Source: Amoebidium appalachense
Lineage: Eukaryota > Protista > Ichthyosporea
Length of the DNA: 15,427 nt
Direction: 5' to 3'
NCBI GenBank assembly: GCA_963693365.1
Contig: CAVNZM010000069.1
Coordinates: forward strand, 1-15,427
The translations under genes and the position numbers were made by a program. Below the pieces are notes generated by a model. It did not search any database, was not told the DNA's origin, and was given only the letters and a program-made list of their open reading frames with translations. Shown here piece after piece: positions 1-15,427 of this stretch (the stretch's first letter is position 1; every line of letters begins with the position of its first letter).

Positions 1-406
1 TTAATTCAGAATACAGAAGTGACTATTCTGAAATTGGAGGTTTAGCATATGAGGGAATGGGTACCTACGGAAGCCTACGGAACTTTCGCGGTGCTCCATT
101 TTATGAAATCAATAAGATTCTTTAATTGTAATTAATATATTTATAATGTAAAATAAGGGTGAATTGCCGAAGCCCAAATAAGTGGAGATCTCAATTTTCA
201 TAATTCCGGATACTGAAGTGACGATTCTGGTACTCTGAGTTTTAATAAATTAAAAATCTTAAATGGAAGAAAGGAAGAAATTACTCTAATCCTAGCAAGT
301 TAGAAGTTGAATTAAATCCTTCAATAGTAGGAAATAGAAAATATGGAATAGGGTGAGAAGCCTATTTTCCAAAAACTGAAGGTCCCAAGCTGGAAAGTCC
401 AGACCC

Positions 407-812
407 AGAGGCGAGTCGAAAGTCTGATTGGGTGAACTACCATAGGCAAGGCAAGAGTCTGATTGGGTGAACTACCAGAGGTGAGTCGAAAGTCTGATTG
501 GGTGAACTACCAGAGGCGAGAGTATGATTGGGTGAATTACGAGAGACGAGTCGAAAGTCTGATGATAAGAGCATAAGAATGTTTATTAGCGATAAGATTC
601 TACTAAGACTTTATCAGAGGCGAGTCGAAAGTCTGAGCTCAGAGTAAGATATGGTGAATTACGAGAGGCGAGTCAAGAATCTGATTGGGTGAATTACCAG
701 AGGCGAGTCGAAAGTCTGAGCTCAGAGTAAGATATGGTGAATTACGAGAGGCGAGTCCAGAATCGGATTGGGTGAATTACCAGAGGCAAGTTGAAAGTCT
801 GATCGGGTGGTT
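407..812. repeat. Tandem array of about 10 copies of a ~35-bp unit; mirror 14024..14429
   Basis: Consensus agaggcgagtcgaaagtctgattgggtgaaYtacc, with units starting at 407, 442, 477, 512, 542, 616, 664, 699, 747 and 782. Two are 48-bp variants and one carries a ~50-bp insert. Confidence 0.95.
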
Positions 813-1244
813 TGCAGGATCCCAAAAATGTAGGTCTCAAAATTTTAAATTCCGTATATAGAAGTGACAAATCTGAAAATCGGAGTTTTAGCAGAGCAGA
901 AATGGGGTACCTACGGAAATCTACGAAACTTTTGCGGGGCTCCAATTTAGGGATTTAATAAAGATATTAAAGGGAATTTCAATGTAATAAAGGAAAAAGT
1001 ACTCTAAGAATAGGAAAGCATAAATTTAAAGAGTAGATGCTAGTACTCCATGAGCTTGTCGTATCATGACGATAAGGGCATAAGATTATTCTCTTAGTAA
1101 GAAGTTTCTTAAGAGATACTAATTGGCACTATAATTCTTAGAGTACTGTAATTACTCCCTTAATATGAAATAATATAGATGGCATCATCATTAAGATGCT
1201 TATTTCGATCCATCATAGAGAGGTATAAAAAAAATGATGTATAT

Positions 1245-1319
1245 AATAGCCCGTGCCTTGAATGATTATTAGTAACAACTTTCTCTGTATCAATTCCTAC
1301 TGAATTGCTAGTATCAAGT
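1245..1319 (+). pseudogene. cox1: Possible cox1 C-terminal remnant inside a 70-codon code-4 ORF (1179..1391); mirror 13517..13591 (-)
   Basis: NSPCLEWLLVTTFSVSIPTELLV has the same spacing as the Cox1 tail LEWLL.SPP.FHTF.ELP (W=TGA at 1263), but the SPP/H core is lost. Confidence 0.4.
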
Positions 1320-1393
1320 ACAGCACTCTGAGATCCTATGTATAATCTTATTAGGACAGTTACCACTCTTGATAGTAGTACACATTCATAAGC

Positions 1394-1531
1394 GGTTCAT
1401 ACCAAATAATTTCTCCAAGTCCAAGTCCAGGGCTAATTTATATTGTTTTAGCTGTATTAGTATTCATATTGAGTACTATATGTTGATCTCATAATGATAA
1501 AAATAGAGATCTAATGATGATTACAATTATC
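1394..1531 (+). pseudogene. cox3: Cytochrome c oxidase subunit 3 N-terminal remnant
   Basis: SYQIISPSPSPGLIYIVLAVLVFILSTICWSHNDKNRDLMM vs the Cox3 motif HPYHLVSPSPWP-x18-H. Allowing a 6-bp agtcca duplication and WP->GL (tgg cca -> ggg cta), the spacing to W-x-H is exact. W=TGA at 1484. Confidence 0.65.
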
Positions 1532-1571
1532 GAACCAATTAACTCCGAGGAATAATTCTTTGGGTTATTTA

Positions 1572-1635
1572 ATAGAACCGTATTAAAGAGATAGTCTGTT
1601 CTTAAGTGTGAACTTAAACTTAAGCTAGTTTAGAT
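1572..1635. repeat. Dispersed ~60-bp repeat; partner 9212..9268 (inverted relative to each other within the unit)
   Basis: atagaaccgtattaaagagatagtctgttcttaagtgtgaactta...agctagttta vs atagaactgtactaatgagatagtttattcttaagtatgaacttaagctggttta. Confidence 0.85.
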
Positions 1636-1829
1636 TAATAGTACTATAATTATTATTATAGACTGTAAGTTTAATAGGGTATAATATTTATTAGACTATT
1701 TTTTAGTACCAATTAATACCGTGTACTGCAGATTCGTAAGAGGAAGTATAGTACATGACGTAATCTCTAGGTTAGTATCTCAAGATAACCAGTAGCTGAA
1801 TTCTTTAAAGAAGAAAGCTTTCTTCTGAT

Positions 1830-2610
1830 GCACGAGGATAGAGTTGTGTTATTAACGCTAATTAAGAAGAGGATTTTTAAAAGTATACGAATCGTTAGAA
1901 ACAAATGAATAATAAAGTAGCATGAGCGAAAGGATTAAAAGGATTCCTTCAATAATTTAATAGGACTAAAGTTCAAAGCTTAATATTAGTAGTAGTTCAA
2001 TAAGGATGACTACGTATTTTTTTGCATACGGCTCTAAGTTATATCGTATTAGTGAGGTTAGTTAGAGAAATGTAACCGAAGTTACTTAAAGTTCGTATTA
2101 TATTATCAGACCGAAACAGAATTATTTAAGCATATTCAAATGGATATTTGAGTAATATCAAATGGAAGATTAAACTACATTAGCACTTAGAAGATAATTA
2201 TATTTCTTACTAGCTGATTTGCCGTAAAACATGGTTAATAAAGTGTCGAAGCTATAGGAATAAAAAAGTAAAAGGAAGTCTCGTCAAATCTAGAACCAAT
2301 TTTGCTTCTATAGCAGCATTAGTACATACAGTGAAGGCTGAATGTTGATTTTATAATTGTAAAATAGAGATTTAATGAAAATTATTTATTTATAAGTAAA
2401 ATAACCTTTTTATTTGAGAAGTTTATTGATTAATATCTAGATTATATAATGTATAAATGTTATTAAAAAATTCTATGTTGAATGGTGTAAATGCAATTAC
2501 TTCATGAACTAGTTGTTGTATTATGATAAGAGAATAAAAAAATTTTTAGCACGAAAGGTTTAAAGTGTCGTAACTATTCGATTAGTTCAGAGTAAAATTG
2601 AACCTAAGCA
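1830..2610 (+). pseudogene. rnl: Degenerate fragment of bacterial-type (mitochondrial) LSU rRNA, roughly domains I-III; boundaries approximate
   Basis: Colinear decayed 23S-type anchors: aagtagcatgagcgaaagg 1915 (cf. CAGTACCGTGAGGGAAAGG), gactacgtatttttttgcatacgg 2008 (cf. GACTGCGTACCTTTTGTATAATGG), agaccgaaac 2108 (cf. AGACCCGAAAC), tagctgatttgccgtaaaa 2211 (cf. TAGCTGGTTCTCCCCGAAA), and cagagtaaaattgaacctaag near 2588 (cf. CAGGGTGAGTCGACCCCTAAG). Normally invariant positions are mutated. Confidence 0.8.
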
Positions 2611-2769
2611 ATATTCCGTTATTTAGTAATAATAATTGAATATTAGAACAGTAATTCTATGGAGTAGTACAATATCATATCTATTTGGGATTTCTGAAAA
2701 CTTATTAGAAATACACATCATTATGCATGATCAATAAGAAAGAAAGTCCTAGATTTACGATAATAAATT

Positions 2770-2955
2770 GTAAGGTTTAATTGCTGAGAAGTGCTTTATT
2801 TATGTAAAATAGAGCGAAAGGGGTAGAGTAAGATATTGGAATATATTTTGTGTTACATTAATAACAAAAAATAAATAAGCCTATTTTGTATTAACTAGTT
2901 GATGAGGTAATGACTTACCAAGGCAAATATATATAGCTGGTTTAAGATAAATGGC
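2770..2955 (+). pseudogene. rns: Degenerate 5' fragment of bacterial-type (mitochondrial) SSU rRNA
   Basis: attaactagttgatgaggtaatgacttaccaaggcaaatatatatagctgg (2890-2940) matches 16S ATTAGCTAGTTGGTGAGGTAATGGCTCACCAAGGCGACGAT...TAGCTGG. Upstream, gcgaaaggggtagagtaa resembles GCGGACGGGTGAGTAA. Confidence 0.85.
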
Positions 2956-2989
2956 GCAAAGCTTATGAAATAATAATTTACTATCTATT

Positions 2990-3420
2990 TATGAATAATT
3001 ATCGGAGGAGTGTTCGCTTAATGAAACAACTCAGAACCAAGTCTTGACCAGGATACTTATCTAAAATCATAAAATACTATCATAGTTTCATTTATAACGT
3101 AATGGAGAGGTGTATTTTATTTTAGTATGCAATATTTATATATATATATATTCCGGATACAGAAAGATTGCACAGAATACAAACAAGTTTTTGATCGAGA
3201 AGTTAAAAGTAACTTTTAAGACAATGTTGTACTCGATGAATAAATTAGAAGAGCAAGGAAAATTACAATGGTATTCAGGGTATCATTGCTCTAATAACAA
3301 TGGATTGTATTCCGGAGATAATTCTAGTATATAGATTATATTTAGAGTTTCTGAGGAATCTTCTTGCAAAGAAAAATTTATATGTTTTGTAATCTGAAGA
3401 TTTCAAGAGTCTTTGATGAG
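2990..3420 (+). pseudogene. cox3: Possible heavily decayed cox3 middle/C-terminal region; mirror 11416..11846 (-)
   Basis: Ordered weak motifs: IIGGVFA*W (cf. LSSGVSITW), NTIIVSFIT*WRGVFYFSMQY (IT..G..Q spacing of Cox3), then in another frame GIQGIIALI...YRLYL (cf. GFHGIHVII...R.YL). Each is weak alone. Confidence 0.33.
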
Positions 3421-3619
3421 CCGTTGCTCATTGGGTACTCATACTCTAATACCAGTGGGTAGATATTAATGCATCAAGGCATAGATGAAATATTTTCACA
3501 GGCACTCGACACTAATAATATCTTAACTTTAGGAGGAGGGAGGAGTAAGGTATATCTTGCCTATGAAAATAGTGTCTTATATAGGCATTGAAAATAAGTG
3601 GATTAGTTGAAATCGCGAA

Positions 3620-3830
3620 TTTTTTGAGCTGTCTCATTGTTATTATTGGTTCTCTATTGGTTTAAGCGCCAACTATCTAAATTTGAGATTTTGAGATGTT
3701 TCATAACTATCACTGGGTCTCTAAATTAAAAAGTCCCTGTTGTTTTATGATTGAGACAAACTTGAACTGTTTCATAACAATTACTGTTTCTTTAAAATTT
3801 AAACCCCAATTGTTTATCTGAGTAAGAAGA
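3620..3830. repeat. Three degenerate ~70-bp tandem repeats; mirror about 11006..11216
   Basis: ttgagctgtctcattgttattattggttctcta (3624), ttgagatgtttcataactatcactgggtctcta (3691), ttgaactgtttcataacaattactgtttcttta (3762). Confidence 0.8.
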
Positions 3831-4019
3831 ATTTAGCTAGTCTTATCTGTTTGAATTGTTAAATCATGGCATGTCTCATATATTAGATTTAATATAATTT
3901 TTATCCTGGTTATTAAAGGGGATTTAATCAATGGTTATCTGAGGTAACTTATTAAAGGATTTTTGTAACAACGATTAAAGATGGATTTATTTAATGGTTA
4001 TCACAAACATTTTTTAAAT

Positions 4020-4570
4020 GAATCTGAACATATAGCCACGATAATATTATCTATTTTATCTTGTAAAAGAGGAGAATGCTACCTTTTATGTAGATAGTTC
4101 TTTAATAATTCCTCTTTAAATTAAAGTAGGTTTTAAAATAAACCTAAGCATATTGACATGCGAACATGGTCAATTTTTCTTGGAATAAAGGGGGGGTTAC
4201 TACCTTTTACATCAATAATTCTATAATAGTTTCTCTAAAATTAGAGTTAATTATAAAGGAAATTTAAGTATATTGATATGAGAATTTTGTCTATCACTCA
4301 TTGAAATGAATAGATTTGTCCTCATTTGGATAAGTTATTTCTTAGTCCGATTTTTTAAATTTTCGCCACTTAAGACAATCTCAGCCTATAGTCAGGTAAC
4401 ATTATCTATTTTCTTTTCAAGTAGGCTGAGTAGTAGCTTTAAGCCAGTAATTCTTTAGTAGTTCCTCTATAATTAGAGTTGATTATTGAAGAAATATAAG
4501 CATATTAACATTAAACCTAGGGTGATTCATTCTTGAGTCTGACATGGGTATATGTCTCAATTGGGATCAG
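4020..4570. repeat. Degenerate ~118-bp tandem repeat, 4-5 copies; mirror about 10267..10816
   Basis: aagcatattgac (4146), aagtatattgat (4266) and aagcatattaac (4498), with similar upstream blocks (taccttttaY...tctYtaWaattaRag). attatctatttt recurs near 4046 and 4401. Confidence 0.8.
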
Positions 4571-5010
4571 AGATGAGGACATAATATAAGTGAATAAATA
4601 AAATAGGATTGTACAATAATCAGTGGTGTTCTTGGGTACCTAGCCTTGATACAAGTGAGAGTGTAATAATTTTATTCGGATTATAAAAGTGGAATACTTG
4701 TAGTAAAGATAGAGAATAAAAATTCTTGGTTATTACCGATAGAATTTTGTATATTTTGTTTCGAAGGTTAGATGAAGATGATCTCTACAAATCATTTCCT
4801 ACATAACAATTCTCCCTCCAAACTATAATTTGCATATAATATATTTTCTCTAATCAATAAATCATCTCTTTCCTTTTGCTCCATTCTAATCCACCCAAGA
4901 AAAGATACTCAAATGCTTCCTCCATTTGTCTTTTGCCAATTGATCCACCTATTTTCAAACTCTTTTTAATTTTTCATTAAAACTAAAGAAGTCAGAGAGA
5001 TTAGAGCTAT

Positions 5011-5447
5011 TTATGATATGAATAGGTTTAAGAGATTAAGATCCCGTAAGGTAACTCTGAATCAAATTCCAAATAATAAAGTCACACTAATGTGAGCAGT
5101 AGCATTAAATCCATAAAAACTATTCTTATAAAGGTTAAAATGATTATATATTGGAATAAAATAAAGATAACTAAAGAATAAGCATTTATTTGTTCTCCGA
5201 TGTTATCTTCAATTAATCCATAAACAGTCTCATATAAGATTTTATTGTATTTTGTATACTAATCGGTATTATGTACCCTCTCTCTATGCTTAATTTATAT
5301 GTTATTATTAATATTATGAACTATATCTTCAGCCTAGATTCCAGCTATAAATGATAGGAGTAACAGGTGTACTCTTTGAAGATCCTATTAATAAATTTTT
5401 ATCTCCTTTGATTTCAGGCTAAATTGTTCAATCCCACGTAGTTCTAT
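5011..5447 (-). pseudogene. atp6: atp6 pseudogene (mirror copy)
   Basis: Reverse complement of 9390..9826. Confidence 0.87.
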
Positions 5448-6478
5448 TAGCAAAAGAAAATCCAGGTTTATTCCTGAAAATTCAAAAATGGTTCCAGTAT
5501 ATAACCAAGTTTAACTTTACTATTATCAAAAATTCTCTAATTTAGTATTATTAGGTATAAGACTAAAATATAAACCAGCTTAAGTTCATACTTAAGAATA
5601 AACTATCTCATTAGTACAGTTCTATACAATAGTGAAAGCTATTGGCTCGCGTGTAATCTCAGAGGATTCTACTAACAAATATTATATTTATTTTAGTTTT
5701 CTGCTAATTACCCATTGTTACATCTTTAATTCTATTATTTGCAATAAATACAAAAGACTTAAAGCTTAGAGATTTCAAGCATCTGGCTAAATTTAAGGTG
5801 TACCTTTTATGCTAGTCTCATTACCAACTCACCTATTTTCAAAATGCTTCTTAAAAGTTCAAATTATATCATTAAATCAATAGAATAGCAAGAAATCTAA
5901 AAAAATCTATTAGTTTTAGGTAGAGAAAATTGGAAAAACTGAAAAGTTTTGGGTTCAGGATGTTGAAAGCAAAGGGAGGGGTACTTTTTCTAAACTGCGC
6001 CCATCTAAAGGAAATAGCTTTCCATAGAAAGTCCTACCACTATAGAATAAATATTTAATTACTAAATAGAATTAGCCGATCAATTTGATACGGTTAAACG
6101 AGGCATGTGTACCCCCTATATACACATGGTCAGACAAAGCACTAATTCCACCTTAACAATTAGTGTCTTAGTGATCCGAGTGATCTGAATGATCTGACTC
6201 TCCTATGTCATGAAGCAAATTTTACCATGTTCCTTTTATAAAGCTCTTAAATATTTCATCCTATAAAGTTATAATACTATATTAGTATGTTTTACAACGT
6301 CTAGAACTATTAACTTTCAGTTATTCCCTTTTTATATACATTAGATGAATGAATGTTTCCTCATGAATATTAACGAGAAAATTATTAGTACCATCTCTTA
6401 CTAAGCTCATAAGAATAATAATAATTGGCTTAGTAAAAAGTAGCTGCTCAATTCGGAGAGCTAAGAATAAGAATAAAA

Positions 6479-7000
6479 TTATATTAACATAGTAACCACA
6501 AGAATAATCAATAAATAAAATAATAAAATTTCAAACTCAACGTATAATAATAATAATTTATCCAGCCTATCTATGGAAGTTGTCGTAACTTCCAAGTAAG
6601 CTAAATGTTGAGTATTCATTGCTAAGTAAACAGGTAATAAATCTTGAGCGCAAACTAAGATGATCATTCCTAGATTGGCTAAAGTAATTAACTCTACTCG
6701 TTCCATTCCCTTTTTCTCTTTCTCTCTATCCATCATTAATAAAGCAACTACCAAATTTATTGAAGTTACTATTCCATATTCCATGATTAACTGTCCATAT
6801 TCTCCTGTTAATCCTATTACTCTTCCTCCTTTACCCATTTCTAATCACGCGATTAGACCTACTCCTCTTGTCACTATTGTAATTTTATAAATCAAATTAC
6901 TTCTACTTTGTCCATTCTTGCTAAACATTACTATTACGACTGCTATACCTACTAATGCTATAATTGTTATATTTTTCACTTCATAAAAAATATCATACAT
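6479..7000 (-). pseudogene. nad2: nad2 5' fragment (mirror copy)
   Basis: Reverse complement of 7836..8357. Confidence 0.8.
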
Positions 7001-7418
7001 TCTTTATCTTTCCTATTCTTGAATAATTAAACACCAGATGTGTTATTAACATAGTACTAATTTACTTAACATACAGAGTATTTTTTCCTTCATTACATTG
7101 AAATTCTTTAAAAGATTTTTATTAGGTTCATAAATTGGAGCACCGCGAAAGTTACGTAGGCTTCCGTAGGTGCCCAATTTCTACCCGGCTAAAAATGACA
7201 ATTTACCATTTTCTGGATTTTTGACAATTTACCATATTCTGTATTTAGGATTTCAAATCTCATCTTATATCGTGACAATACCTTGATGTAAGAGTAGAGG
7301 TAAATATCTAGTCATCACACACCCACCCTACACCTAAAATACCCCTATATACAAAGCTTAGAGTAAGAAGAAGGGAGGAGGGGGCGAGATGAAATAACTA
7401 GACTGGGCCCCCGAACTA

Positions 7419-7462
7419 GTTCGGGGGGCCCAGTCTAGTTATTTCATCTCGCCCCCTCCTCC
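7419..7462. repeat. Terminal inverted repeat / telomere, end A (mirror 7374..7416)
   Basis: gttcggggggcccagtctagttatttcatctcgccccctcctcc is the exact reverse complement of 15372..15415. Confidence 0.93.
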
Positions 7463-7661
7463 CTTCTTCTTACTCTAAGCTTTGTATATAGGGGTATTTT
7501 AGGTGTAGGGTGGGTGTGTGATGACTAGATATTTACCTCTACTCTTACATCAAGGTATTGTCACGATATAAGATGAGATTTGAAATCCTAAATACAGAAT
7601 ATGGTAAATTGTCAAAAATCCAGAAAATGGTAAATTGTCATTTTTAGCCGGGTAGAAATTG

Positions 7662-7699
7662 GGCACCTACGGAAGCCTACGTAACTTTCGCGGTGCTCC
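7662..7699 (+). promoter_or_regulatory. Conserved 38-bp GC-rich subterminal motif (candidate origin/promoter/protein-binding site)
   Basis: ggYacctacggaagcctacgKaactttcgcggtgctcc contains a tandem cctacgga-type repeat. Opposite-orientation copies lie near the other end at 13893-13930, 14739-14776, 14896-14933 and 15081-15118 (mirrors 60-97, 906-943, 7137-7174). The repeat is certain and the function is inferred. Confidence 0.55.
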
Positions 7700-7729
7700 A
7701 ATTTATGAACCTAATAAAAATCTTTTAAA

Positions 7730-7828
7730 GAATTTCAATGTAATGAAGGAAAAAATACTCTGTATGTTAAGTAAATTAGTACTATGTTAATAACACATCT
7801 GGTGTTTAATTATTCAAGAATAGGAAAG
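7730..7828 (+). promoter_or_regulatory. Leader cassette upstream of nad2, shared with the other arm (974..1018 / 13818..13862)
   Basis: gaatttcaatgtaatRaaggaaaaaRtactct and aagaataggaaag occur about 30 bp downstream of the 38-bp motif on both arms. Here aagaataggaaag ends 7 nt before the nad2 ATG. Confidence 0.5.
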
Positions 7829-7835
7829 ATAAAGA

Positions 7836-8357
7836 ATGTATGATATTTTTTATGAAGTGAAAAATATAACAATTATAGCATTAGTAGGTATAGCAGTCGT
7901 AATAGTAATGTTTAGCAAGAATGGACAAAGTAGAAGTAATTTGATTTATAAAATTACAATAGTGACAAGAGGAGTAGGTCTAATCGCGTGATTAGAAATG
8001 GGTAAAGGAGGAAGAGTAATAGGATTAACAGGAGAATATGGACAGTTAATCATGGAATATGGAATAGTAACTTCAATAAATTTGGTAGTTGCTTTATTAA
8101 TGATGGATAGAGAGAAAGAGAAAAAGGGAATGGAACGAGTAGAGTTAATTACTTTAGCCAATCTAGGAATGATCATCTTAGTTTGCGCTCAAGATTTATT
8201 ACCTGTTTACTTAGCAATGAATACTCAACATTTAGCTTACTTGGAAGTTACGACAACTTCCATAGATAGGCTGGATAAATTATTATTATTATACGTTGAG
8301 TTTGAAATTTTATTATTTTATTTATTGATTATTCTTGTGGTTACTATGTTAATATAA
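7836..8357 (+). pseudogene. nad2: NADH dehydrogenase subunit 2, 5' part (173 codons in code 4), truncated/degenerate; faint similarity may continue to about 8580
   Basis: Reading TGA 7989-7991 as Trp extends the 7998 ORF to ATG 7836 (MYDIFYEVKNITIIALVGIAVVIVMF...). ERVELITLANLGMIILVCAQDLLPVYLAMNTQHLAY matches the Nad2/NuoN motif E..ILILLSTLGM.LL.SS.DL...YL.IELQSL. The conserved E is N, EAGLKYF..G is decayed, and TAA/TAG stops follow. It is far shorter than a full Nad2. Confidence 0.8.
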
Positions 8358-9389
8358 TTTTATTCTTATTCTTAGCTCTCCGAATTGAGCAGCTACTTTT
8401 TACTAAGCCAATTATTATTATTCTTATGAGCTTAGTAAGAGATGGTACTAATAATTTTCTCGTTAATATTCATGAGGAAACATTCATTCATCTAATGTAT
8501 ATAAAAAGGGAATAACTGAAAGTTAATAGTTCTAGACGTTGTAAAACATACTAATATAGTATTATAACTTTATAGGATGAAATATTTAAGAGCTTTATAA
8601 AAGGAACATGGTAAAATTTGCTTCATGACATAGGAGAGTCAGATCATTCAGATCACTCGGATCACTAAGACACTAATTGTTAAGGTGGAATTAGTGCTTT
8701 GTCTGACCATGTGTATATAGGGGGTACACATGCCTCGTTTAACCGTATCAAATTGATCGGCTAATTCTATTTAGTAATTAAATATTTATTCTATAGTGGT
8801 AGGACTTTCTATGGAAAGCTATTTCCTTTAGATGGGCGCAGTTTAGAAAAAGTACCCCTCCCTTTGCTTTCAACATCCTGAACCCAAAACTTTTCAGTTT
8901 TTCCAATTTTCTCTACCTAAAACTAATAGATTTTTTTTAGATTTCTTGCTATTCTATTGATTTAATGATATAATTTGAACTTTTAAGAAGCATTTTGAAA
9001 ATAGGTGAGTTGGTAATGAGACTAGCATAAAAGGTACACCTTAAATTTAGCCAGATGCTTGAAATCTCTAAGCTTTAAGTCTTTTGTATTTATTGCAAAT
9101 AATAGAATTAAAGATGTAACAATGGGTAATTAGCAGAAAACTAAAATAAATATAATATTTGTTAGTAGAATCCTCTGAGATTACACGCGAGCCAATAGCT
9201 TTCACTATTGTATAGAACTGTACTAATGAGATAGTTTATTCTTAAGTATGAACTTAAGCTGGTTTATATTTTAGTCTTATACCTAATAATACTAAATTAG
9301 AGAATTTTTGATAATAGTAAAGTTAAACTTGGTTATATACTGGAACCATTTTTGAATTTTCAGGAATAAACCTGGATTTTCTTTTGCTA

Positions 9390-9826
9390 ATAGAACTACG
9401 TGGGATTGAACAATTTAGCCTGAAATCAAAGGAGATAAAAATTTATTAATAGGATCTTCAAAGAGTACACCTGTTACTCCTATCATTTATAGCTGGAATC
9501 TAGGCTGAAGATATAGTTCATAATATTAATAATAACATATAAATTAAGCATAGAGAGAGGGTACATAATACCGATTAGTATACAAAATACAATAAAATCT
9601 TATATGAGACTGTTTATGGATTAATTGAAGATAACATCGGAGAACAAATAAATGCTTATTCTTTAGTTATCTTTATTTTATTCCAATATATAATCATTTT
9701 AACCTTTATAAGAATAGTTTTTATGGATTTAATGCTACTGCTCACATTAGTGTGACTTTATTATTTGGAATTTGATTCAGAGTTACCTTACGGGATCTTA
9801 ATCTCTTAAACCTATTCATATCATAA
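9390..9826 (+). pseudogene. atp6: ATP synthase subunit a (atp6), 5' half, frameshifted pseudogene
   Basis: Colinear motifs across frameshifts: GIEQF (cf. SPLEQF, EQF at 9408), FIILIITYKLSIERGYIIPISIQ (cf. GKLIPNRWQ), ILYETVYGLIEDNIGEQINAYSLVIFILFQYII (cf. IYEFV..LV.EQIG...YFPLIF.LF.FI), and YGFNATAHISVTLLFGIW from 9722 (cf. PYSFTVTSH..VT). Confidence 0.87.
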
Positions 9827-11880
9827 ATAGCTCTAATCTCTCTGACTTCTTTAGTTTTAATGAAAAATTAAAAAGAGTTTGAAAATAGGTGGATCAATTG
9901 GCAAAAGACAAATGGAGGAAGCATTTGAGTATCTTTTCTTGGGTGGATTAGAATGGAGCAAAAGGAAAGAGATGATTTATTGATTAGAGAAAATATATTA
10001 TATGCAAATTATAGTTTGGAGGGAGAATTGTTATGTAGGAAATGATTTGTAGAGATCATCTTCATCTAACCTTCGAAACAAAATATACAAAATTCTATCG
10101 GTAATAACCAAGAATTTTTATTCTCTATCTTTACTACAAGTATTCCACTTTTATAATCCGAATAAAATTATTACACTCTCACTTGTATCAAGGCTAGGTA
10201 CCCAAGAACACCACTGATTATTGTACAATCCTATTTTATTTATTCACTTATATTATGTCCTCATCTCTGATCCCAATTGAGACATATACCCATGTCAGAC
10301 TCAAGAATGAATCACCCTAGGTTTAATGTTAATATGCTTATATTTCTTCAATAATCAACTCTAATTATAGAGGAACTACTAAAGAATTACTGGCTTAAAG
10401 CTACTACTCAGCCTACTTGAAAAGAAAATAGATAATGTTACCTGACTATAGGCTGAGATTGTCTTAAGTGGCGAAAATTTAAAAAATCGGACTAAGAAAT
10501 AACTTATCCAAATGAGGACAAATCTATTCATTTCAATGAGTGATAGACAAAATTCTCATATCAATATACTTAAATTTCCTTTATAATTAACTCTAATTTT
10601 AGAGAAACTATTATAGAATTATTGATGTAAAAGGTAGTAACCCCCCTTTATTCCAAGAAAAATTGACCATGTTCGCATGTCAATATGCTTAGGTTTATTT
10701 TAAAACCTACTTTAATTTAAAGAGGAATTATTAAAGAACTATCTACATAAAAGGTAGCATTCTCCTCTTTTACAAGATAAAATAGATAATATTATCGTGG
10801 CTATATGTTCAGATTCATTTAAAAAATGTTTGTGATAACCATTAAATAAATCCATCTTTAATCGTTGTTACAAAAATCCTTTAATAAGTTACCTCAGATA
10901 ACCATTGATTAAATCCCCTTTAATAACCAGGATAAAAATTATATTAAATCTAATATATGAGACATGCCATGATTTAACAATTCAAACAGATAAGACTAGC
11001 TAAATTCTTCTTACTCAGATAAACAATTGGGGTTTAAATTTTAAAGAAACAGTAATTGTTATGAAACAGTTCAAGTTTGTCTCAATCATAAAACAACAGG
11101 GACTTTTTAATTTAGAGACCCAGTGATAGTTATGAAACATCTCAAAATCTCAAATTTAGATAGTTGGCGCTTAAACCAATAGAGAACCAATAATAACAAT
11201 GAGACAGCTCAAAAAATTCGCGATTTCAACTAATCCACTTATTTTCAATGCCTATATAAGACACTATTTTCATAGGCAAGATATACCTTACTCCTCCCTC
11301 CTCCTAAAGTTAAGATATTATTAGTGTCGAGTGCCTGTGAAAATATTTCATCTATGCCTTGATGCATTAATATCTACCCACTGGTATTAGAGTATGAGTA
11401 CCCAATGAGCAACGGCTCATCAAAGACTCTTGAAATCTTCAGATTACAAAACATATAAATTTTTCTTTGCAAGAAGATTCCTCAGAAACTCTAAATATAA
11501 TCTATATACTAGAATTATCTCCGGAATACAATCCATTGTTATTAGAGCAATGATACCCTGAATACCATTGTAATTTTCCTTGCTCTTCTAATTTATTCAT
11601 CGAGTACAACATTGTCTTAAAAGTTACTTTTAACTTCTCGATCAAAAACTTGTTTGTATTCTGTGCAATCTTTCTGTATCCGGAATATATATATATATAA
11701 ATATTGCATACTAAAATAAAATACACCTCTCCATTACGTTATAAATGAAACTATGATAGTATTTTATGATTTTAGATAAGTATCCTGGTCAAGACTTGGT
11801 TCTGAGTTGTTTCATTAAGCGAACACTCCTCCGATAATTATTCATAAATAGATAGTAAATTATTATTTCATAAGCTTTGC

Positions 11881-12066
11881 GCCATTTATCTTAAACCAGC
11901 TATATATATTTGCCTTGGTAAGTCATTACCTCATCAACTAGTTAATACAAAATAGGCTTATTTATTTTTTGTTATTAATGTAACACAAAATATATTCCAA
12001 TATCTTACTCTACCCCTTTCGCTCTATTTTACATAAATAAAGCACTTCTCAGCAATTAAACCTTAC
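11881..12066 (-). pseudogene. rns: SSU rRNA 5' fragment (mirror copy)
   Basis: Reverse complement of 2770..2955. Confidence 0.85.
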
Positions 12067-12225
12067 AATTTATTATCGTAAATCTAGGACTTTCTTTCTT
12101 ATTGATCATGCATAATGATGTGTATTTCTAATAAGTTTTCAGAAATCCCAAATAGATATGATATTGTACTACTCCATAGAATTACTGTTCTAATATTCAA
12201 TTATTATTACTAAATAACGGAATAT

Positions 12226-13006
12226 TGCTTAGGTTCAATTTTACTCTGAACTAATCGAATAGTTACGACACTTTAAACCTTTCGTGCTAAAAATTTTTTT
12301 ATTCTCTTATCATAATACAACAACTAGTTCATGAAGTAATTGCATTTACACCATTCAACATAGAATTTTTTAATAACATTTATACATTATATAATCTAGA
12401 TATTAATCAATAAACTTCTCAAATAAAAAGGTTATTTTACTTATAAATAAATAATTTTCATTAAATCTCTATTTTACAATTATAAAATCAACATTCAGCC
12501 TTCACTGTATGTACTAATGCTGCTATAGAAGCAAAATTGGTTCTAGATTTGACGAGACTTCCTTTTACTTTTTTATTCCTATAGCTTCGACACTTTATTA
12601 ACCATGTTTTACGGCAAATCAGCTAGTAAGAAATATAATTATCTTCTAAGTGCTAATGTAGTTTAATCTTCCATTTGATATTACTCAAATATCCATTTGA
12701 ATATGCTTAAATAATTCTGTTTCGGTCTGATAATATAATACGAACTTTAAGTAACTTCGGTTACATTTCTCTAACTAACCTCACTAATACGATATAACTT
12801 AGAGCCGTATGCAAAAAAATACGTAGTCATCCTTATTGAACTACTACTAATATTAAGCTTTGAACTTTAGTCCTATTAAATTATTGAAGGAATCCTTTTA
12901 ATCCTTTCGCTCATGCTACTTTATTATTCATTTGTTTCTAACGATTCGTATACTTTTAAAAATCCTCTTCTTAATTAGCGTTAATAACACAACTCTATCC
13001 TCGTGC
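12226..13006 (-). pseudogene. rnl: LSU rRNA fragment (mirror copy)
   Basis: Reverse complement of 1830..2610. Confidence 0.8.
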
Positions 13007-13304
13007 ATCAGAAGAAAGCTTTCTTCTTTAAAGAATTCAGCTACTGGTTATCTTGAGATACTAACCTAGAGATTACGTCATGTACTATACTTCCTCTTAC
13101 GAATCTGCAGTACACGGTATTAATTGGTACTAAAAAATAGTCTAATAAATATTATACCCTATTAAACTTACAGTCTATAATAATAATTATAGTACTATTA
13201 ATCTAAACTAGCTTAAGTTTAAGTTCACACTTAAGAACAGACTATCTCTTTAATACGGTTCTATTAAATAACCCAAAGAATTATTCCTCGGAGTTAATTG
13301 GTTC

Positions 13305-13442
13305 GATAATTGTAATCATCATTAGATCTCTATTTTTATCATTATGAGATCAACATATAGTACTCAATATGAATACTAATACAGCTAAAACAATATAAAT
13401 TAGCCCTGGACTTGGACTTGGAGAAATTATTTGGTATGAACC
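13305..13442 (-). pseudogene. cox3: cox3 N-terminal remnant (mirror copy)
   Basis: Reverse complement of 1394..1531. Confidence 0.65.
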
Positions 13443-14023
13443 GCTTATGAATGTGTACTACTATCAAGAGTGGTAACTGTCCTAATAAGATTATACATAG
13501 GATCTCAGAGTGCTGTACTTGATACTAGCAATTCAGTAGGAATTGATACAGAGAAAGTTGTTACTAATAATCATTCAAGGCACGGGCTATTATATACATC
13601 ATTTTTTTTATACCTCTCTATGATGGATCGAAATAAGCATCTTAATGATGATGCCATCTATATTATTTCATATTAAGGGAGTAATTACAGTACTCTAAGA
13701 ATTATAGTGCCAATTAGTATCTCTTAAGAAACTTCTTACTAAGAGAATAATCTTATGCCCTTATCGTCATGATACGACAAGCTCATGGAGTACTAGCATC
13801 TACTCTTTAAATTTATGCTTTCCTATTCTTAGAGTACTTTTTCCTTTATTACATTGAAATTCCCTTTAATATCTTTATTAAATCCCTAAATTGGAGCCCC
13901 GCAAAAGTTTCGTAGATTTCCGTAGGTACCCCATTTCTGCTCTGCTAAAACTCCGATTTTCAGATTTGTCACTTCTATATACGGAATTTAAAATTTTGAG
14001 ACCTACATTTTTGGGATCCTGCA

Positions 14024-14429
14024 AACCACCCGATCAGACTTTCAACTTGCCTCTGGTAATTCACCCAATCCGATTCTGGACTCGCCTCTCGTAATTCACC
14101 ATATCTTACTCTGAGCTCAGACTTTCGACTCGCCTCTGGTAATTCACCCAATCAGATTCTTGACTCGCCTCTCGTAATTCACCATATCTTACTCTGAGCT
14201 CAGACTTTCGACTCGCCTCTGATAAAGTCTTAGTAGAATCTTATCGCTAATAAACATTCTTATGCTCTTATCATCAGACTTTCGACTCGTCTCTCGTAAT
14301 TCACCCAATCATACTCTCGCCTCTGGTAGTTCACCCAATCAGACTTTCGACTCACCTCTGGTAGTTCACCCAATCAGACTCTTGCCTTGCCTATGGTAGT
14401 TCACCCAATCAGACTTTCGACTCGCCTCT
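14024..14429. repeat. 35-bp tandem array (mirror copy)
   Basis: Reverse complement of 407..812. Confidence 0.95.
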
Positions 14430-14599
14430 GGGTCTGGACTTTCCAGCTTGGGACCTTCAGTTTTTGGAAAATAGGCTTCTCACCCTATTCCATATTTTCT
14501 ATTTCCTACTATTGAAGGATTTAATTCAACTTCTAACTTGCTAGGATTAGAGTAATTTCTTCCTTTCTTCCATTTAAGATTTTTAATTTATTAAAACTC

Positions 14600-15350
14600 A
14601 GAGTACCAGAATCGTCACTTCAGTATCCGGAATTATGAAAATTGAGATCTCCACTTATTTGGGCTTCGGCAATTCACCCTTATTTTACATTATAAATATA
14701 TTAATTACAATTAAAGAATCTTATTGATTTCATAAAATGGAGCACCGCGAAAGTTCCGTAGGCTTCCGTAGGTACCCATTCCCTCATATGCTAAACCTCC
14801 AATTTCAGAATAGTCACTTCTGTATTCTGAATTAAAACCAATTTACCCTTATTTCCCTTATAACTCGGTTAATAATAATTTAAGAATCTTATAATGGAGC
14901 ACCGCGAAAGTTCCGTAGGCTTCCGGAGGTACCCTAATTCTAATCTGTTAAAATGTCAATTTTCCAGATCGTCACTCCCGAAATTTGACATTTTACCATC
15001 TTCTGTACCTCGAAATTTAAAACTATTTACACTTATTTCCCTTATAAATCGGTTAATAACAATTTAAGATTCTTTAATAAGGAGCACCGCGAAAGTTCCG
15101 TAGGCTTCCGTAGGTACCATAATCCCTAATTGGTTTAAACTCAGGTTACCAGGTTAGTCACGCCCGTATCCAGAATTTAAAACCAATTCACCCTTATTTT
15201 TCCTTATAAATATGTTAATTGCAATTTAAGATTACGATAAAACCTAATTATGATATGCTATAATTTCAAATTTCCAGATTGTCACTCCCGAAATTGACAT
15301 TTTGACATCTTCTGTATTTAGGATTTTTATTTTCATCTTATATCGTGACA
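14600..15350. repeat. Subtelomeric array of degenerate ~160-190-bp modular units (partial mirror 1..236)
   Basis: Recurrent boxes in fixed order: gtcac-box (near 14613, 14813, 14971, 15157, 15281), aattYacccttatt-box (14671, 14840, 15185, variant near 15026), aatttaaga, then the 38-bp motif. Confidence 0.88.
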
Positions 15351-15371
15351 CAAGCTTCAAGTAAGAGTAGA

Positions 15372-15415
15372 GGAGGAGGGGGCGAGATGAAATAACTAGA
15401 CTGGGCCCCCCGAAC
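15372..15415. repeat. Terminal inverted repeat / telomere, end B
   Basis: ggaggagggggcgagatgaaataactagactgggccccccgaac. Weaker similarity to end A continues inward (gtaagagtagagg, catcttatatcgtgaca, tctgtatttaggattt). Confidence 0.93.
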
Positions 15416-15416
15416 C

Positions 15417-15427
15417 AGCAATACGTA
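15417..15427 (+). other. Untrimmed Oxford Nanopore ligation adapter remnant (technical sequence)
   Basis: AGCAATACGTA is the start of the reverse complement of the ONT adapter end (...CAGTTACGTATTGCT). It lies at the extreme end of the sequence, exactly where similarity to the other terminus stops. Confidence 0.9.

What the first reader, a model, noticed from the sequence alone, without database searches (positions are those of the whole stretch)
7374..7462. Spacer-less fold-back exactly at the telomere: candidate covalently closed hairpin end or telomere-dimer junction
Seen: the 7.4-kb palindrome turns precisely at the tip of the 44-bp TIR (GAACT|AGTTC) with no adapter sequence at the junction, while the identical TIR at the other end stops at GAAC(C) and joins adapter. 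Established: hairpin telomeres exist in Borrelia replicons, N15-type phages and some linear mitochondrial DNAs, and single-molecule reads run around them to give palindromes. Inference: this linear chromosome has hairpin-capped ends, with the adapter-bearing end opened at the loop, or it replicates through head-to-head dimers resolved at ACTAGT. No resolvase or polymerase is encoded here, so the machinery would act in trans. A nanopore template-complement chimera cannot be excluded from sequence alone.
Basis: partly seen in the sequence, partly recalled or inferred. Interest (0 to 1): 0.85.

Follow-up and report, generated by a model that had tools for sequence, protein, structure and literature searches.

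The report
Folded-back Amoebidium mitochondrial minichromosome
The window holds an 8-kb DNA unit, likely one of the many small linear mitochondrial chromosomes of the protist Amoebidium, joined to its own mirror image at one tip; the join is likely a nanopore fold-back artefact, though a natural hairpin cap is not excluded.

Summary
The window is a 7.4-kb palindrome that turns with no spacer at the tip of a perfect 44-bp terminal inverted repeat (TIR). The same TIR at the far end runs into a 12-base adapter-like tail. The 7,997-bp unit looks like an Amoebidium mitochondrial minichromosome: its one recognisable gene piece is 81% identical over 47 aa to A. parasiticum Nad2-like protein. Such chromosomes are already known. 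The hairpin reading is not shown. Only one of two identical ends folds, and the other was ligatable at its tip. Nanopore fold-backs occur in about 0.6% of genomic reads, mostly without a visible spacer (PMC12870357). On intact 8-kb molecules they would turn at the telomere. The apex letters are unreliable and disagree with the open end. No independent data on the axis could be obtained. Weights: fold-back artefact 0.62, native hairpin on some ends 0.30, head-to-head dimer 0.08. If real, it would be a known telomere type in a new lineage, and a read count would settle it.

The parts
7419..15415 (+). Unit linear minichromosome, 7,997 bp, 31% GC, likely mitochondrial DNA of Amoebidium
   Evidence: TIR at both ends; covered in 30 of 30 bins in each of 4 public runs from 3 studies; Nad2-like match
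1..7417 (-). Mirror copy of 7418-14835; stops 580 bp short of the far tip
   Evidence: Global alignment shows three homopolymer-length differences only; inverted repeats I1-I3
7417..7418 (.). Apex of the fold, two letters (TA) outside the 44-bp repeat; a mirror of the open far end would give CG here
7374..7416 (-). Mirror copy of the near TIR, 43 nt (C-run one short, 5 nt before the apex)
7419..7462 (+). Near terminal inverted repeat, 44 bp, 61% GC
15372..15415 (-). Far terminal inverted repeat, 44 bp, identical to the near one
15416..15427 (+). One C, one A (likely the A-tail) and an adapter-like tail: the far end was open and ligated
   Evidence: Sequence; adapter identity recalled, not from a call
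7836..8357 (+). 173-aa ORF (code 4) holding a nad2 piece at 8100-8240; similarity stops there, likely a truncated pseudogene
   Evidence: 81% over 47 aa to P0001, an A. parasiticum protein with PF00361; no Pfam hit for the ORF itself
7536..7761 (+). Near subterminal repeat block, inverted to blocks at the far end
   Evidence: Self-BLAST: 7536-7615 vs 15294-15373 (84%), 7642-7761 vs 13831-13950 (82%)
13831..15371 (+). Far subterminal region: four copies of a 79-nt repeat family spaced 846, 157 and 185 bp, plus 83-bp and 35-bp tandem arrays at 14034-14431
   Evidence: (D4)

Best explanation
The window is an 8.0-kb unit with identical 44-bp terminal inverted repeats, likely an Amoebidium mitochondrial minichromosome, joined tip to tip to its own reverse complement by what is likely a nanopore fold-back artefact. 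Shown: the unit, its TIRs, the nad2 piece, the spacer-less turn and the foreign tail on the far tip. Inferred mechanism: the ends are open and ligatable in the DNA preparation. One molecule had its two strands joined at one end during library preparation, or read in one unsplit pass. Because these molecules are short and stay intact, the turn falls on the telomere tip. The double-length read was kept as a contig and polished by ordinary reads mapping to either arm. That makes the arms clean but leaves the apex letters unreliable.
For: (1) The far TIR, identical to the folded one, runs directly into a C, an A and an adapter-like tail, so this end type is ligatable at its tip; only 1 of 2 ends folds. 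[quoted passage not shown] (2) Fold-backs are about 0.55-0.6% of nanopore genomic reads; fewer than half of artefact reads have more than 11 bases between the arms; the authors favour library preparation (PMC12870357). This window meets their definition: 0-bp gap, breakpoint at 48% of the length. (3) At the unique-region depth of run X1 (about 190) that rate already gives about one such read (illustrative only, contig depth is no read count). (4) The arms differ only in 3 homopolymer runs. At 10640 runs X4, X7 and one X2 contig carry the longer run, as the left arm does, while X1 shares the right arm's short run. This fits a nanopore consensus. Raw reads through inverted duplications lose accuracy after the junction (PMC7229812), so the clean arms are likely polished. 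(5) The apex is TA where a mirror of the open end gives CG. T and A are the letters that adapter-bearing reads would place in those two columns, and a homopolymer error lies 5 nt away.
Against: No read count was obtained, so the artefact rate at this tip is not measured. A zero-gap, zero-overlap turn is also exactly what a true hairpin gives. A simple unsplit read would leave A then T at the junction, not T then A (inference). One miscall at 15416 would reconcile the far end with a hairpin nicked at a T|A apex. Mixed open and closed ends are documented in Candida frijolesensis mtDNA (PMC3105423), so one open end does not exclude hairpins. In Heinz et al. genomic fold-backs rarely recurred at one place, and an assembler should mostly discard single chimeras.
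Confidence: 0.62

Rival explanations
1. Native telomeric hairpins. Amoebidium mitochondrial chromosomes would be capped, at least in part of the population, by a covalently closed hairpin with a short loop at the TIR tip. Replication would run round the tip to give inverted dimers, which a nuclear-encoded nuclease or resolvase would cut back; nicked or unfinished ends would be the ones that take adapters.
For: Exact spacer-less turn at the tip. The apex folds as a stem with a 4-nt loop (any palindrome does). All termini would share one 44-bp, GC-rich repeat suited to one trans-acting enzyme. Precedent: hairpin ends in Pichia, Williopsis and Candida mtDNA, with an open subpopulation in C. frijolesensis, and closed-loop telomeres in Polytomella.
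Against: The identical far end is open and ends in C where the apex has T. No strand-changing joint at 7417/7418 among the 15 of 42 joints shown, and no loose end at either tip among 24 of 428 shown (contigs and truncated tables make this nearly uninformative). Hydra, whose chromosomes share the ITR-plus-subterminal layout, was reported to lack hairpins (PMC2518934, citing Warrior).
Confidence: 0.3
2. Head-to-head duplex dimer. The molecule would be a true 16-kb double-stranded palindrome, either a replication intermediate or an end-to-end fusion through the shared TIR, with open outer ends.
For: It explains one open end and one joined end in the same sequence. Palindromic dimers resolved to linear monomers are described for Paramecium, Armadillidium and Candida viswanathii.
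Against: With several hundred chromosomes sharing one TIR, fusions should mostly join different chromosomes, not mirror copies, unless they come from hairpin replication (inference). The arms show no substitution that would mark two molecules. The apex does not match a blunt join of two far-end-type tips.
Confidence: 0.08

Closest known systems
Amoebidium parasiticum multipartite linear mtDNA (Burger et al. 2003; not held, seen only through passages of PMC2518934, PMC7027106, PMC8303319, PMC7194472)
   Same: Small linear chromosome with an inverted terminal repeat at both ends, subterminal repeats, low coding density, and a nad2 piece whose only close relative is an A. parasiticum protein.
   Different: I could not compare the TIR with the published chromosomes. 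The published accounts that I saw say nothing on whether the tips are open or closed. The species is not determined.
Nanopore fold-back reads (Heinz, Meyerson and Li 2026, PMC12870357; parts 1-3 of 5 read)
   Same: Near-perfect palindrome, turn near the midpoint, no sequence between the arms.
   Different: Their artefacts were profiled in human and mouse samples; here the turn sits at a natural molecule end and the sequence looks like a polished consensus, not a raw read.
Hairpin-capped (t-hairpin, type L1) yeast mtDNAs: Pichia pijperi, Williopsis mrakii, Candida viswanathii, C. frijolesensis (PMC3105423, passages)
   Same: Linear, partly multipartite mtDNA with terminal inverted repeats; palindromic junctions; open and closed ends can coexist.
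   Different: There the closure is shown by nuclease and kinase tests; here it rests on one junction. Their repeats are long inverted repeats, here the perfect TIR is 44 bp.
Borrelia hairpin telomeres read by nanopore (bioRxiv 10.1101/2025.07.18.665644, passages)
   Same: Long reads run round the tip and give terminal inverted duplications.
   Different: There both ends fold, with 12-300x read support and a known resolvase (ResT); here one end folds, the other bears an adapter-like tail, and no resolvase is on the unit.

Membership tests
Amoebidium-type mitochondrial minichromosome | Linear unit with identical inverted terminal repeats at both ends | tested here: met
   44-bp perfect TIR, 7419-7462 and 15372-15415
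Amoebidium-type mitochondrial minichromosome | Carries mitochondrial gene sequence of Amoebidium | tested here: met
   Single hit among 89 candidates is an A. parasiticum Nad2-like protein, 81% over 47 aa; best metagenome relatives of that protein reach 53%
Amoebidium-type mitochondrial minichromosome | Distinct 5' and 3' subterminal sequences shared among many chromosomes | tested here: inconclusive
   Subterminal repeat blocks differ between the two ends, and summed contig depth is several-fold to 70-fold higher in the terminal bins than inside in X1, X2 and X4, but no sister chromosome was obtained
Amoebidium-type mitochondrial minichromosome | UGA read as Trp; transcription from the 5' to the 3' subterminal block | not tested
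   The one in-frame TGA lies outside the matched part of the ORF; no RNA run was laid
Nanopore fold-back artefact (Breakinator definition) | Second segment on the opposite strand within 200 bp of the first; breakpoint within 10% of the midpoint | tested here: met
   Gap 0 bp; breakpoint at 7417/15427 = 48% (definition). True hairpin reads meet this too.
Nanopore fold-back artefact (Breakinator definition) | Supported by few reads, at background rate, against many reads that end or pass normally | not testable with these tools
   The listed holders are kept as contigs, not reads; no read count at the axis was obtained
t-hairpin linear mtDNA (yeast type L1, Polytomella) | Covalently closed termini, refractory to exonuclease III and kinase | not testable with these tools
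   Bench test; the far end here carries an adapter-like tail, so at least that end was open
t-hairpin linear mtDNA (yeast type L1, Polytomella) | Fold-back at both ends in long-read sequence | tested here: not met
   1 of 2 identical ends folds in this window
Protelomerase or ResT hairpin replicon (N15, Borrelia) | Telomere resolvase gene on the replicon or in the same genome | tested here: inconclusive
   No such ORF on the unit: only two ORFs of 80 aa or more with a start codon per arm; no whole genome is held, so a trans-acting gene could not be sought

The most novel reading that the evidence does not exclude
The several hundred linear mitochondrial chromosomes of Amoebidium end in covalently closed hairpins at a shared 44-bp repeat, open in part of the population. 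They replicate through inverted dimers resolved at the tip by one nuclear-encoded enzyme, possibly a protelomerase-like one. This would be a hairpin telomere in a unicellular relative of animals; none of the 5 paper searches naming Amoebidium (searches cover them) gave a passage describing its end structure.
Probability: 0.3. Interest if true: 0.6.

Novelty: not a real feature. Interest (0 to 1): 0.3.

Why it matters
If the fold is an artefact, the window is one more chromosome of a known, odd mitochondrial genome. It is also a warning that fold-backs on short intact linear replicons mimic hairpin telomeres exactly. If it is native, it would say how several hundred tiny linear chromosomes solve end replication, which the papers I could read leave open. 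It would add Ichthyosporea to the lineages with hairpin mitochondrial telomeres and predict a nuclear-encoded resolving enzyme acting on one 44-bp site. The question is cheap to settle from existing raw long reads.

Tried and rejected
No whole genome is held, so sister contigs could not be checked for fold-backs at the same TIR. No tRNA, no Rfam match at E<=1 and no Pfam match for the ORF. tblastn of 4,493 ORFs from loci L001-L080 plus P0001 against the unit gave 10 rows: 8 on the nad2 piece and 2 weak ones (E about 3e-4 and 7e-4) that I set aside as chance. A subtelomeric motif had 0 matches in viral and prokaryote genome contigs. Laying contigs: 13 of 1,355 X1 contigs, 0 of 2,176 X2, 1 of 254 X4 and 0 of 108 X7 run over the ends of 7400-15427, but the end is not given. 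A perfect palindrome would stop a 31-mer contig about 15 bases past the axis (inference), so these counts decide nothing. No independent view of the axis itself was obtained, which leaves the main question open. No RNA holder was listed. Four look-ups of earlier findings returned nothing. The primary paper on Amoebidium mtDNA is not held, so any end test it reports is unseen; no supplements were consulted. bioRxiv 10.1101/2024.01.08.574619 mentions only mitochondrial 16S. Considered and dropped: a calcareous-sponge or cubozoan origin (the protein match is to Amoebidium); a whole-genome-amplification palindrome (no sign of nested palindromes; not excluded, counted under artefact); ACTAGT as a resolution site (it rests on two uncertain letters).

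Full report
Observation. The window is a palindrome centred between 7417 and 7418. Positions 1-7417 mirror 7418-14835 with three differences, all in the length of a homopolymer run. The turn lies at the tip of a perfect 44-bp, 61% GC repeat (7419-7462) that recurs inverted at 15372-15415. There is no spacer at the turn; only the central TA is outside the repeat. The far copy is followed by 12 letters: a C, an A and a tail that I recognise from memory as the nanopore ligation adapter (not confirmed in the two papers searched).

What the unit is. Between the two TIR tips lie 7,997 bp at 31% GC. There is no tRNA and no Rfam match. One 173-aa ORF under code 4 starts about 400 bp from the folded tip. 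It has no Pfam match, but its single hit among 89 candidates is P0001, an Amoebidium parasiticum protein with PF00361, 81% identical over 47 residues. Similarity stops at 8240, so this is likely a truncated nad2 copy. No other gene piece was found with 4,493 ORFs from 80 nad2/nuoN-bearing loci. Both ends carry subterminal repeat blocks, one copy of a 79-nt family at the folded end and four at the far end, plus 83-bp and 35-bp tandem arrays. Papers describe Amoebidium mtDNA as several hundred small linear chromosomes with inverted terminal repeats and 5' and 3' subterminal sequences, about 20% coding (passages of PMC2518934, PMC7027106, PMC8303319, PMC7194472). The unit is real: 20 of 24 listed runs, from 6 studies, hold it or part of it. 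Four runs from three studies cover 30 of 30 bins, with long exact pieces such as a 4,588-base contig in X4; one of these runs may be the window's own source. So the unit is likely an ordinary member of a known genome type; the species is not determined.

What kind of sequence the window is. Three homopolymer differences in 7.4 kb are too few for a raw nanopore read, above all one through an inverted duplication, where accuracy drops after the junction (PMC7229812, abstract and Results). At 10640, runs X4 (19.5 of 19.5), X7 (3.7 of 3.7) and X2 (13,006 of 26,311) carry the longer run, as the left arm does. X1 (0 of 185) shares the right arm's short run. I infer a nanopore consensus polished by reads that map to either arm. 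The identity of the arms then says nothing about the junction, and the apex, which ordinary reads cannot span, is the least reliable spot. A homopolymer error sits 5 nt from it.

Does the junction show a hairpin? Heinz et al. (PMC12870357, parts 1-3 of 5) find fold-backs in about 0.55-0.6% of nanopore genomic reads and cite 1-4% elsewhere. Fewer than half of their artefact reads have more than 11 bases between the arms, and eight raw signals showed nothing unusual at the turn; they favour an origin in library preparation. An 8-kb chromosome mostly survives extraction whole, so a fold at the molecule end is a fold at the telomere (inference). At a depth of 190 that rate gives about one such read (illustrative). 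The window also holds direct evidence of an open end: the identical far TIR is joined to the adapter-like tail at its tip. In Borrelia, true hairpins gave inverted duplications at both chromosome ends in nine strains, and hairpins blocked adapter ligation (bioRxiv 10.1101/2025.07.18.665644, passages).

The apex letters cut both ways. A mirror of the far tip would give CG; the window has TA. T and A are the letters that adapter-bearing reads would put in those two columns from the right and from the left, which fits a consensus artefact. A nicked T|A hairpin with one miscall at 15416 fits as well. Mixed open and closed ends are known from Candida frijolesensis mtDNA (PMC3105423, passages), and closed-loop telomeres from Polytomella (PMC3787674, passages). 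Hydra, with a similar terminal layout, was reported to have neither hairpins nor terminal proteins.

What could not be had. No genome is held for the window, no sister chromosome was found, and the holders of the sequence are kept as contigs. In one search no strand-changing joint at the axis appears among 15 of 42 joints shown, and no loose end at a tip among 24 of 428 shown. Contigs running over the ends number 13 of 1,355 (X1), 0 of 2,176 (X2), 1 of 254 (X4) and 0 of 108 (X7), with the end not stated. These tables are too coarse to decide, and no finer view of the axis was obtained. The primary Amoebidium paper is not held. Searches naming Amoebidium (and 32 with 4 of 5 terms) listed no paper on its end structure; most were seen as listings only, and subscription papers are not covered.

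Mechanism and verdict. Most likely (0.62): the ends are open, and one molecule's strands were joined in library preparation or read in one pass; the double-length read became a contig. Rival (0.30): native hairpins on part of the ends, replicated through inverted dimers and resolved in trans. Rival (0.08): a duplex head-to-head dimer. The sequence works like a hairpin-telomere read, but membership in the hairpin class is not established: fold-back at both ends was tested and not met, and covalent closure is untestable here. The chromosome is a new member of a known kind; the fold is more likely not a real feature. Interest 0.3, because a pooled read count over hundreds of identical telomeres would settle an apparently open question. 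If real, interest 0.6.

Noticed in passing
window 7836-8357 (+), mirror 6479-7000 (-): The nad2-like ORF matches the A. parasiticum protein for 47 aa and then diverges; an X4 contig with 6 differences over 8113-8239 suggests another nad2 copy on a different chromosome. An 8-kb chromosome with only a truncated gene may be kept by its telomeres alone, or hold genes too divergent to detect.
   Followed up: partly
window 7642-7761, 13831-13950, 14713-14810, 14887-15007, 15074-15152: A GC-rich repeat family occurs once near one tip and four times, inverted, near the other; candidate origin, promoter or terminator elements of the 5' and 3' subterminal blocks.
   Followed up: partly
window 14034-14431: 83-bp and 35-bp tandem arrays with strong strand skew and high summed contig depth, so likely shared among several chromosomes.
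   Followed up: no
window 10326-10825: Three to four degenerate direct repeats of about 120 bp in the middle of the unit, with loose ends and indels in public contigs, suggesting recombination between chromosomes.
   Followed up: no
window 15416-15427: An untrimmed adapter-like tail and a fold-back in one record suggest that this assembly holds uncleaned organellar contigs; other windows from it may show the same artefact.
   Followed up: no
window 7419-15415 in run X9: A run guessed to be RNA holds 59% of the unit's words; if it is RNA, much of this nearly gene-free chromosome may be transcribed.
   Followed up: no
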